The notes under the pieces are model-generated. The model was not told the DNA's origin, ran no database searches, and saw nothing but the letters and a program-made list of their open reading frames with translations. From assembly GCF_053078305.1 (NCBI RefSeq), contig NZ_CP166879.1: DNA of 64,000 nt; one strand, written 5' to 3'. Shown here piece after piece: positions 45,643-46,530 of the stretch. How positions within the stretch are numbered: the first letter of the stretch is position 1; the number at the start of each line of letters is the position of its first letter. The position numbers were made by a program, and so were the translations under genes.

Positions 45643-46530
45643 ATGCCGCGTTTAACCGCCAAAGATTTCCCACAAGAGTTGTTGGATTACTACGACTATT
45701 ACGCTCACGGGAAAATCTCGAAACGTGAGTTCCTCAACCTTGCGGCGAAGTATGCGGTGGGCGGGATGACGGCATTAGCGTTGTTTGATTTGCTCAAGCC
45801 AAATTATGCGCTGGCGACTCAGGTAGAGTTTACCGACCCGGAGATTGTTGCTGAGTACATCACGTATCCTTCGCCAAATGGTCACGGCGAGGTACGGGGT
45901 TATCTGGTGAAACCCGCAAAAATGAGCGGCAAAACGCCAGCCGTGGTGGTGGTGCATGAGAATCGTGGACTGAATCCGTATATCGAAGATGTGGCACGGC
46001 GAGTGGCGAAGGCGGGGTATATCGCCCTGGCACCTGACGGCTTAAGTTCCGTTGGAGGTTATCCGGGAAATGATGATAAAGGTCGTGAGCTGCAACAGCA
46101 GGTTGATCCAACCAAACTGATGAATGATTTCTTTGCCGCAATTGAGTTTATGCAACGCTATCCGCAAGCGACAGGCAAAGTGGGTATTACCGGATTTTGC
46201 TATGGCGGTGGCGTATCGAACGCGGCGGCTGTCGCGTATCCGGAACTGGCCTGCGCGGTGCCGTTTTATGGTCGTCAGGCACCCACTGCCGATGTGGCGA
46301 AGATTGAAGCGCCTTTACTACTCCACTTCGCGGAACTGGACACCCGAATCAACGAGGGCTGGCCTGCTTACGAGGCGGCGTTGAAAGCCAATAATAAGGT
46401 TTATGAGGCGTATATCTATCCGGGGGTTAATCACGGATTCCATAATGATTCCACGCCCCGTTATGACAAATCTGCCGCCGATCTTGCCTGGCAAAGGACA
46501 CTGAAATGGTTCGATAAATATCTCTCCTGA
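45643..46530 (+). CDS. yghX: Dienelactone-hydrolase-family protein YghX (apparently intact here)
   Basis: ORF track 45598..46530 is one uninterrupted frame; alpha/beta hydrolase (DLH-like). Start taken at MPRLTAKDF... but uncertain. Confidence 0.75.
   Translation: MPRLTAKDFPQELLDYYDYYAHGKISKREFLNLAAKYAVGGMTALALFDLLKPNYALATQVEFTDPEIVAEYITYPSPNGHGEVRGYLVKPAKMSGKTPAVVVVHENRGLNPYIEDVARRVAKAGYIALAPDGLSSVGGYPGNDDKGRELQQQVDPTKLMNDFFAAIEFMQRYPQATGKVGITGFCYGGGVSNAAAVAYPELACAVPFYGRQAPTADVAKIEAPLLLHFAELDTRINEGWPAYEAALKANNKVYEAYIYPGVNHGFHNDSTPRYDKSAADLAWQRTLKWFDKYLS

What the first reader, a model, noticed from the sequence alone, without database searches (positions are those of the whole stretch)
45643..46530. 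yghX reads as an intact dienelactone-hydrolase-family gene
A single uninterrupted frame of about 295-310 aa encodes a DLH-type alpha/beta hydrolase. I remember yghX as a frameshifted pseudogene in K-12, so this would be the functional ancestral allele.
Basis: partly seen in the sequence, partly recalled or inferred. Interest (0 to 1): 0.3.

Follow-up and report, generated by a model that had tools for sequence, protein, structure and literature searches.

The report
Intact yghX hydrolase gene, already known
This is the ordinary, intact form of the E. coli gene yghX, which encodes a cysteine hydrolase whose crystal structure is already solved; about 70% of sequenced E. coli carry this form, and K-12 and its relatives carry a copy broken by two small deletions.

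Summary
Window 45643-46530 (+) is one uninterrupted 888-nt frame of 295 codons plus a stop. It starts at an ATG preceded by a GAGGAG ribosome-binding site.

- **Identity:** RefSeq annotates the identical sequence as "yghX: YghX family hydrolase". It scores 587 bits against NCBIfam NF041440 (cut-off 460) and E=2.7e-48 against Pfam DLH. It is 98% identical to PDB 4ZV9, from E. coli O157:H7 Sakai.
- **Catalytic residues:** Cys186, Asp233 and His264 align with the ClcD triad. Glu106 aligns with ClcD Glu36.
- **K-12:** K-12 MG1655 is indeed a pseudogene, but with two lesions. One is a 2-bp deletion in codon 37 (window 45751-45752). The other is a 1-bp deletion in codon 157 (window 46112/46113).
- **Population:** Among 5,426 complete E. 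coli genomes, 1,505 have the 2-bp lesion and 1,199 have the 1-bp lesion. At least 3,785 are intact at the first site.
- **Ancestry and selection:** A syntenic Citrobacter koseri-like orthologue is intact, and dN/dS within E. coli is 0.036. The intact allele is therefore ancestral and under selection.

Two side results. The K-12 "small protein" YqhI is the translated stump of yghX. Residues 1-58 look like a Tat-type signal with KR instead of RR, and they are unusually conserved.

Everything central is already annotated, so interest is low.

The parts
45643..46530 (+). yghX coding sequence, 295 codons plus TGA
   Evidence: The identical sequence is annotated as the yghX CDS in NZ_CM129850.1.
45630..45635 (+). 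Shine-Dalgarno-like GAGGAG, 7 nt before the ATG
   Evidence: Read directly from the sequence.
45643..45750 (+). Residues 1-36, Pfam PF23678 'YqhI-like'. This is the conserved n-region helix (DYYDYYAH) followed by S-K-R-E-F-L (residues 26-31).
   Evidence: Pfam E=1.5e-21. These 36 residues are identical to the first 36 residues of K-12 YqhI. The motif LYDxYxH-x4-RRxFL is conserved in distant homologues.
45721..45726 (+). Lys27-Arg28, at the position of the twin arginines in homologues
   Evidence: Of 56 representative homologues, 50 have RR and 4 have KR.
45751..45816 (+). Residues 37-58: a moderately hydrophobic stretch (YAVGGMTALALF), then P-N-Y-A-L-A. This is a candidate signal-peptidase site after Ala58.
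   Evidence: Hydropathy profile. The consensus LxPxxAxA recurs in homologues. The 4ZV9 crystal construct starts near residue 57-59.
45892..46524 (+). Dienelactone-hydrolase (alpha/beta hydrolase) domain, residues 84-294
   Evidence: Pfam PF01738 E=2.7e-48. PDB 4ZV9 is 98% identical, with TM 0.98 and rmsd 1.0 A to the model.
45958..45960 (+). Glu106 (GAG), equivalent to ClcD Glu36
   Evidence: Alignment to 4u2c_A. Codon read.
46198..46200 (+). Cys186 (TGC), the nucleophile in GFCYG, equivalent to ClcD Cys123
   Evidence: Codon read.
46339..46341 (+). Asp233 (GAC), the triad acid, equivalent to ClcD Asp171. It is invariant in the 37-sequence alignment.
46432..46434 (+). His264 (CAC), the triad base, equivalent to ClcD His202
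45751..45752 (+). The TA dinucleotide in codon 37 that is deleted in K-12. Deleting AT at 45752-45753 would give the same result.
   Evidence: Alignment A1 and script. The deletion junction is present in 1,505 of 5,426 genomes.
46112..46113 (+). A CC pair in codon 157. K-12 has lost one of the two Cs.
   Evidence: The deletion junction is present in 1,199 of 5,426 genomes.
44446..45486 (-). gpr (yghZ), L-glyceraldehyde 3-phosphate reductase, the divergent neighbour
   Evidence: NCBIfam NF007388, 806 bits. Synteny.
46649..46936 (+). yghW (DUF2623), the downstream neighbour
   Evidence: Pfam PF11115 E=5.5e-53. Synteny.

Best explanation
The window carries the intact, ancestral and most common allele of E. 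coli yghX. It encodes a 295-residue protein with two parts.

**Hydrolase domain (residues about 59-295).** This is a dienelactone-hydrolase-type alpha/beta hydrolase, and its crystal structure is already solved from a 98% identical O157:H7 protein. By homology with Pseudomonas ClcD, Cys186 is the nucleophile. His264 and Asp233 activate it, Glu106 sits next to the thiol, and Arg148 occupies the place of the ClcD carboxylate-binding Arg81. The substrate is unknown. An ester, lactone or thioester carrying a carboxylate is the most likely kind (inference).

**N-terminal element (residues 1-58).** This is specific to the family. It consists of a conserved helix, a twin-arginine-type motif (KR here, RR in most homologues), a short hydrophobic stretch and an A-x-A site. 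The most likely reading is a Tat signal that delivers the folded enzyme to the periplasm (inference, about 50-55%).

**The K-12 lineage.** It lost the gene through a 2-bp deletion in codon 37. A 1-bp deletion in codon 157 followed in a sub-lineage. The still-translated stump is what K-12 annotation calls the small protein YqhI.
For: - **ORF, start and ribosome-binding site:**
- **Family assignment:**
- **Annotation and synteny:** the identical gene is annotated in RefSeq, in the order gpr-yghX-yghW-hybO.
- **Solved structure:** PDB 4ZV9 covers residues 59-294 at 98% identity. The AF2 model (pLDDT 96) superposes on it at 1.0 A.
- **Triad mapping:** alignment to ClcD variant 4u2c pairs C186 with position 123, D233 with 171, H264 with 202, E106 with 36 and R148 with 81.
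- **K-12 lesions:**
- **Population counts:** 2-bp deletion in 1,505 genomes, intact first site in 3,785, 1-bp deletion in 1,199, intact second site in 4,221. RefSeq flags the deleted copies as 'frameshifted'.
- **Order of the deletions:** strain LD39-1 has the 2-bp deletion only. No genome with only the 1-bp deletion appeared in the 39-genome spread sample.
- **Ancestry:** the syntenic C. koseri-like orthologue is intact. So are orthologues in Pseudescherichia, Enterobacter, Kosakonia and Leclercia.
- **Purifying selection:** 37 synonymous against 5 non-synonymous differences from a divergent (95.5% identical) E. coli APEC allele, giving dN/dS 0.036.
- **Tat-type signal:** the alignment consensus is LYDxYxH-x4-RRxFL...LxPxxAxA. 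RR occurs in 50 of 56 representatives.
- **YqhI is YghX 1-36 plus 11 out-of-frame residues:**, with the YqhI sequence in PMC6001520. Its translation in K-12 shows that the yghX start and promoter are live.
Against: - No enzymatic or localisation data exist for YghX in anything searched. The literature only uses the K-12 locus as a neutral integration site.
- ClcD Arg206 is not conserved; YghX has Asn268 there. Dienelactone itself is therefore not implied as the substrate.
- Against a plain Tat signal:
  - The first arginine is Lys.
  - The uncharged core is only 12 residues, flanked by Lys36 and Asp49.
  - AF2 places residues 1-60 with pLDDT 89-94 and an overall pTM of 0.93. That exceeds what the core alone would give (TM 0.80 to 4ZV9, normalised by the query length), so the N-terminus is predicted to be docked on the core.
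  - Codons 1-58 evolve no faster than the mature domain: dN 0.046 against 0.072.
- The simple promoter scan found no sigma-70-like site upstream on the + strand.
Confidence: 0.9

Rival explanations
1. Residues 1-58 are not a cleaved signal. They are a permanent three-helix N-terminal cap that packs on the hydrolase core. On this reading YghX is a cytoplasmic or membrane-peripheral enzyme, and the RR/KR motif is structural or a relic.
For: - AF2 gives pLDDT 89-94 for residues 1-60 and pTM 0.93. It predicts three short helices (11-21, 27-37, 44-51) rather than one long hydrophobic helix.
- The N-terminus is at least as conserved as the catalytic domain: no non-synonymous change within E. coli, and dN 0.046 against 0.072 versus the C. 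koseri-like orthologue.
- KR replaces RR, and charged residues flank the 12-residue hydrophobic core.
- The N-terminal profile search found the element only on DLH proteins, which suggests co-evolution with the domain.
Against: - In more distant homologues the segment is a textbook Tat signal. An example is RRGFMETLTKLTGSAAAAAVIAPMLAANQAQA.
- RR occurs in 50 of 56 representatives.
- Pro at -6 and A-x-A at -3/-1 are conserved.
- Variable-length linkers are inserted right after that site.
- The mature domain alone folds and crystallises (4ZV9).
Confidence: 0.3
2. The frame is open but the gene is on its way to being lost. It would be an unexpressed or catalytically dead relic whose intactness here is incidental.
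For: - The gene has been lost by frameshift in about a quarter of sequenced E. coli without obvious cost.
- K-12 strains with insertions in the locus grow well.
- No function is known.
- A few distant family members have lost both Cys and His.
Against: - dN/dS is 0.036 between divergent E. coli alleles. Synonymous sites are saturated against the C. koseri-like orthologue while dN is only 0.066.
- All catalytic residues are present.
- Orthologues are 85-92% identical across Enterobacteriaceae genera.
- The K-12 start site is translated, and its transcript rises at low Mg2+.
Confidence: 0.05
3. The intact allele in this strain is a secondary restoration, by recombination or reversion from a K-12-like pseudogene, rather than the ancestral state.
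For: E. coli core genes recombine frequently. The two K-12 deletions sum to -3, so frames can look 'restored'.
Against: - The window matches the intact consensus at both sites.
- It differs from K-12 at 11 further single-base positions across the aligned region, some of them outside the coding sequence.
- The intact state is shared by about 70% of genomes at 95-100% identity.
- The intact state is also found in syntenic orthologues of other genera.
Confidence: 0.02

Closest known systems
YghX of E. coli O157:H7 str. Sakai, PDB 4ZV9 ('uncharacterized protein', 2.0 A, released 2015); RefSeq 'YghX family hydrolase' NF041440
   Same: It is the same gene. Identity is 98% over residues 59-294, with the same fold (TM 0.98, rmsd 1.0 A). 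The full-length window protein scores 587 bits against NF041440.
   Different: Three substitutions appear in the aligned part: T59A, V69F and S134N. The crystal construct lacks residues 1 to about 57, so the N-terminal element has never been seen experimentally.
E. coli K-12 yghX pseudogene (b4658) with yqhI (b4755)
   Same: Same locus and orientation between gpr and yghW. DNA identity is about 99%.
   Different: K-12 lacks TA in codon 37 and one C in codon 157. Translation therefore ends after 47 residues, giving YqhI. The window has neither lesion.
Pseudomonas dienelactone hydrolase ClcD (carboxymethylenebutenolidase, PDB 1DIN and variants)
   Same: Alpha/beta hydrolase DLH fold (TM 0.84). 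The Cys-His-Asp triad, the Glu next to the Cys, and the Arg81 equivalent are all shared.
   Different: Identity is only about 25%. ClcD has no N-terminal extension. ClcD Arg206 is Asn268 in YghX. ClcD sits in a chlorocatechol pathway operon, whereas yghX stands alone.
Putative dienelactone hydrolase of Klebsiella pneumoniae (PDB 3F67)
   Same: DLH fold with the GFCWGG elbow. It is the next-closest solved structure (E=2.3e-23, 28% identity).
   Different: It is a different subfamily. The alignment starts at residue 82 of YghX, and the solved chain has no YqhI-like or Tat-like N-terminus.
Tat signal peptides with a natural Lys-Arg pair, such as Salmonella TtrB (recalled from the literature, not checked here)
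   Same: S-K-R-x-F-L followed by a weakly hydrophobic core and A-x-A.
   Different: YghX has a 25-residue conserved n-region helix (LYDxYxH). AF2 predicts the whole element to dock on the mature domain. Export is untested.

Membership tests
Dienelactone hydrolase family (Pfam PF01738) | Profile match above the curated gathering score | tested here: met
   164.8 bits against a cut-off of 21, E=2.7e-48. Residues 84-294 cover profile positions 1-217 of 217.
Dienelactone hydrolase family (Pfam PF01738) | Alpha/beta hydrolase fold of the DLH type | tested here: met
   A solved structure of a 98% identical protein exists (4ZV9). The AF2 model (pLDDT 96) matches it at rmsd 1.0 A and matches 1DIN at TM 0.84.
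Dienelactone hydrolase family (Pfam PF01738) | Cys nucleophile in a G-x-C-x-G elbow, with Asp and His completing the triad and Glu beside the Cys | tested here: met
   GFCYG lies at residues 184-188. C186, D233, H264 and E106 align with ClcD positions 123, 171, 202 and 36.
Dienelactone hydrolase family (Pfam PF01738) | ClcD substrate-binding arginines (Arg81, Arg206) | tested here: inconclusive
   The Arg81 equivalent is present (R148). The Arg206 position is Asn268.
Dienelactone hydrolase family (Pfam PF01738) | Hydrolysis of dienelactone (EC 3.1.1.45) | not testable with these tools
   No assay data were found for YghX.
YghX family hydrolase (NCBIfam NF041440) | Full-length score above the curated cut-off | tested here: met
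   587.3 bits against a cut-off of 460. Residues 3-294 cover profile positions 1-292 of 292.
YghX family hydrolase (NCBIfam NF041440) | Orthologous position between gpr and yghW/hyb | tested here: met
   The window order is gpr(-), yghX(+), yghW(+), hybO(+). The same order is found in K-12, TB06051 and a C. koseri-like contig.
Twin-arginine (Tat) signal peptide | Consecutive arginines in S/T-R-R-x-F-L-K | tested here: not met
   The window has S-K-R-E-F-L-N. Of 56 representative homologues, 50 have RR at this position.
Twin-arginine (Tat) signal peptide | Uncharged h-region of about 13 or more residues after the motif | tested here: inconclusive
   The longest uncharged run is 12 residues (YAVGGMTALALF). 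The family median is 15, and 19 of 56 homologues also have 12.
Twin-arginine (Tat) signal peptide | A-x-A signal-peptidase site at the end of the c-region | tested here: met
   A-L-A lies at residues 56-58, with Pro at -6. The consensus LxPxxAxA holds across the family.
Twin-arginine (Tat) signal peptide | tatABC-dependent export and cleavage | not testable with these tools
   No experimental data were found.
K-12-type yghX pseudogene allele | 2-bp deletion in codon 37 and/or 1-bp deletion in codon 157 | tested here: not met
   The window has TA at 45751-45752 and CC at 46112-46113, and its first stop is at codon 296.

The most novel reading that the evidence does not exclude
The conserved 58-residue N-terminus may be more than a targeting signal. 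It could be a family-specific pro-region: a Tat signal whose conserved LYDxYxH helix docks on the folded hydrolase. It might mask the reactive Cys186 site in the cytoplasm or act as a built-in folding check, and be removed only on export. The K-12 'small protein' YqhI would then be the free-standing remnant of this pro-region rather than an evolved small protein.
Probability: 0.15. Interest if true: 0.45.

Novelty: already known. Interest (0 to 1): 0.1.

Why it matters
It matters little for discovery. The gene, its family, its structure and the K-12 pseudogene status are all in public annotation.

Three practical points follow:
- K-12 is the exception at this locus, so studies that use yghX as a "neutral" integration site do not transfer to strains with the intact gene.
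- YqhI has been studied as a Mg2+-stress small protein. It is the translated 5' stump of a broken hydrolase gene, and its data should be read in that light.
- YghX remains an enzyme with a structure but no known substrate or location. Its conserved Tat-like N-terminus is a cheap and testable lead.

Tried and rejected
- **N-terminal profile search.** I searched a profile of the N-terminal 60 residues (alignment A3) against 5.8 billion proteins, to see whether the element is fused to other domains. The 120 best hits were short fragments carrying only PF23678 or DLH annotations. No other architecture appeared, so there is no sign of a modular element.
- **Gene neighbourhoods of distant homologues.** For P0122, P0137 and P0145 the neighbours differ in each case (response regulator, glyoxalase-like protein, molybdopterin oxidoreductase). 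No conserved partner emerged, so this gives no functional clue.
- **Literature search for dienelactone hydrolase with twin-arginine/Tat.** It returned only genome papers, nothing on YghX export.
- **Literature on yghX.** The papers read use K-12 yghX as an integration locus, or list it in an annotation table. One review mentions an old in-silico proposal that the GxCxG proteins YsgA, YcjY and YghX could be cPHB polymerases. No experimental support was found, so I did not adopt it.
- **Consensus promoter and terminator scan of 45380-46760.** No + strand promoter was found upstream of yghX, and the hit count was no higher than in shuffled sequence. This is uninformative.
- **Is the 1-bp deletion a compensating frameshift?** The two deletions sum to -3, but I rejected this. 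The frame between them contains stop codons, the first at codon 48, so no full-length product is possible.
- **A longer protein from GTG 45598 (310 aa).** Rejected in favour of ATG 45643, for the reasons given in the observation check.

Full report
**1. Observation**

The window has one open frame on the + strand at 45598..46530, 310 aa from the first GTG. The in-frame ATG at 45643 gives 295 codons plus TGA, 888 nt.

The ATG is the true start, on four grounds:
- GAGGAG lies 7 nt upstream.
- RefSeq annotates the identical sequence from that ATG. Strain TB06051 matches at 100% over 1,141 nt, and the protein is WP_001137768.1.
- Orthologues from other genera start MPRLTAKDF or MTRLTAKDF.
- The same ATG is the experimentally confirmed start of K-12 yqhI (PMC6001520).

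The gene order is gpr(-), yghX(+), yghW(+), hybO(+), the mirror image of the K-12 map.

**2. What it is**

The protein matches Pfam DLH (PF01738) over residues 84-294 with E=2.7e-48. It also matches the 36-residue family PF23678 "YqhI-like" over residues 1-36 with E=1.5e-21. NCBIfam NF041440 "YghX family hydrolase" scores 587 bits against a cut-off of 460.

A crystal structure exists. PDB 4ZV9 is titled [quoted passage not shown] (2.0 A, 2015). It covers residues 59-294 at 98% identity. An AlphaFold2 model built on a 37-sequence alignment has mean pLDDT 96.1. It superposes on 4ZV9 at rmsd 1.0 A and on Pseudomonas ClcD (1DIN) at TM 0.84.

The phmmer alignment to ClcD variant 4u2c gives these equivalences:

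| YghX | ClcD position | Note |
|---|---|---|
| Cys186 (in GFCYG) | 123 | nucleophile |
| Asp233 | 171 | triad acid |
| His264 | 202 | triad base |
| Glu106 | 36 | beside the Cys |
| Arg148 | 81 | conserved |
| Asn268 | Arg206 | not conserved |

The roles of ClcD residues 123, 36 and 206 are reflected in the titles of the mutant structures. The roles of 171 and 202 are from my own knowledge of ClcD.

**3. K-12 comparison**

NC_000913.3 annotates yghX (b4658) as a pseudogene. An overlapping 47-codon gene, yqhI (b4755), is annotated at its 5' end. Aligning 1 kb shows two deletions in K-12 plus 11 single-base substitutions:
- TA is missing in codon 37 (window 45751-45752).
- One C is missing in codon 157 (window 46112/46113).

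The deletions sum to -3, so the original frame resumes after codon 157. The intervening frame contains stop codons, the first at codon 48. K-12 YqhI reads MPRLTAKDFPQELLDYYDYYAHGKISKREFLNLAAKCGRRDDGISVV. That is YghX residues 1-36 followed by 11 out-of-frame residues.

**4. Population**

I used 50-51-nt junction probes that share no 28-mer with the other allele (checked).

| Site | K-12-type deletion | Intact form |
|---|---|---|
| Codon 37 (2 bp) | 1,505 of 5,426 genomes | 3,785 |
| Codon 157 (1 bp) | 1,199 | 4,221 |

- Carriers include ETEC H10407 and many clinical, animal and environmental isolates, not only laboratory K-12.
- RefSeq flags these copies as "frameshifted".
- Strain LD39-1 has the 2-bp deletion only.
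- In the 39-genome spread sample, nine genomes had -3, two had -2 and none had -1.
- This fits the 2-bp deletion arising first and the 1-bp deletion arising later within that clade. That order is an inference, because full nesting could not be tested.
- The intact allele is therefore the majority state, at about 70-72%. The collection is enriched for K-12 derivatives, so the natural share is probably higher.

**5. Ancestry and selection**

A C. koseri-like contig carries an intact 295-aa orthologue between gpr and yghW/hyb. Full-length orthologues of 294-298 aa at 85-92% identity occur in Pseudescherichia, Enterobacter, Kosakonia and Leclercia.

Nei-Gojobori counts:
- **Against a divergent E. 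coli APEC allele:** 37 synonymous and 5 non-synonymous differences, giving dN/dS 0.036.
- **Against the C. koseri-like gene:** synonymous sites are saturated and dN is 0.066.

The intact state is therefore ancestral and under purifying selection. "Functional" remains an inference.

**6. The N-terminus**

This goes beyond the original finding. Aligning 36 homologues down to 36% identity gives the consensus LYDxYxH-x4-RRxFL, then a G/A/S/T-rich stretch, then LxPxxAxA, then the mature domain. Of 56 representative clusters with the motif, 50 have RR, 4 KR, 1 HR and 1 RK. This is the layout of a twin-arginine signal peptide with a signal-peptidase site, and the 4ZV9 construct begins just after it.

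The E. coli version deviates in four ways:
- It has KR at residues 27-28.
- Its uncharged core is 12 residues, flanked by Lys36 and Asp49.
- AF2 predicts residues 1-60 at pLDDT 89-94 with an overall pTM of 0.93. That exceeds the 0.80 that the core alone contributes, so the segment is predicted to be docked on the core.
- Codons 1-58 are at least as constrained as the rest: dN 0.046 against 0.072, with no amino-acid change within E. coli.

From memory, single R-to-K changes are tolerated by the E. coli Tat system and a natural KR signal exists in Salmonella TtrB. I did not verify this here.

I rate Tat export at about 50-55% and a permanent cap domain at about 30%. A docking pro-region is the most novel reading left open.

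**7. Expression**

K-12 YqhI was detected by chromosomal epitope tagging (PMC6001520). It was listed among small proteins induced at low Mg2+, independently of PhoQP and as a putative soluble protein. The growth defect of the deletion strain was not complemented by YqhI (PMC11429745). The yghX promoter and start site are therefore active, so the intact allele is very likely expressed (inference). The passages I read from those papers do not describe YqhI as a pseudogene stump.

**8. Comparison with what is known, and verdict**

The gene is a full member of the DLH family and of the NCBIfam YghX family (see the membership table). It is not shown to be a dienelactone hydrolase in the enzymatic sense. 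Gene neighbourhoods of distant homologues are not conserved, and the literature gives no substrate.

The allele is nonetheless the standard, annotated, structurally characterised and majority form. Novelty: already known. Interest: low.

Noticed in passing
window 46611-46636: A perfect inverted repeat with 11-bp arms, TCGCTATATAT-GACG-ATATATAGCGA, ends 13 nt upstream of the yghW start codon. The arms are conserved upstream of yghW in a C. koseri-like contig (L007, about 8790-8817), but the loop differs there. This may be an operator or promoter element for the uncharacterised DUF2623 gene.
   Followed up: partly
window 45643-45750; K-12 L001 4598-4741 (-): The K-12 'small protein' YqhI (b4755, 47 aa) has been studied as a Mg2+-stress-induced small protein. 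It is the first 36 residues of YghX plus 11 frameshifted residues. The Pfam family PF23678 'YqhI-like' therefore models the N-terminus of YghX-type hydrolases.
   Followed up: yes
window 45643-45816 (YghX residues 1-58): AlphaFold2 gives pLDDT 89-94 to a segment that by sequence looks like a cleavable Tat signal. This segment also evolves no faster than the catalytic domain. The cause is unexplained: it could be a docking pro-region or a structural cap.
   Followed up: partly
alignment A2 (homologues P0143, P0152, P0163, P0195, P0249): A few distant family members have lost one or both catalytic residues. P0163, P0195 and P0249 lack both the Cys and the His, P0152 lacks only the Cys, and P0143 lacks only the His. 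They may be non-catalytic paralogues.
   Followed up: no
L007 7105-8745: In the C. koseri-like locus, a 546-aa methyl-accepting chemotaxis protein gene lies between yghX and yghW. It is absent from the E. coli window.
   Followed up: no
E. coli genome hits H40 and H110: Only 10 of 5,425 genomes lack at least 80% of the locus. One is IAL7255, which keeps only the last 205 nt of the 1,141-nt query (the 3' end of yghX plus part of the yghX-yghW spacer). A strain labelled EcN_Sk carries the K-12-type double deletion, and its gpr allele is the one found in ETEC H10407.
   Followed up: partly
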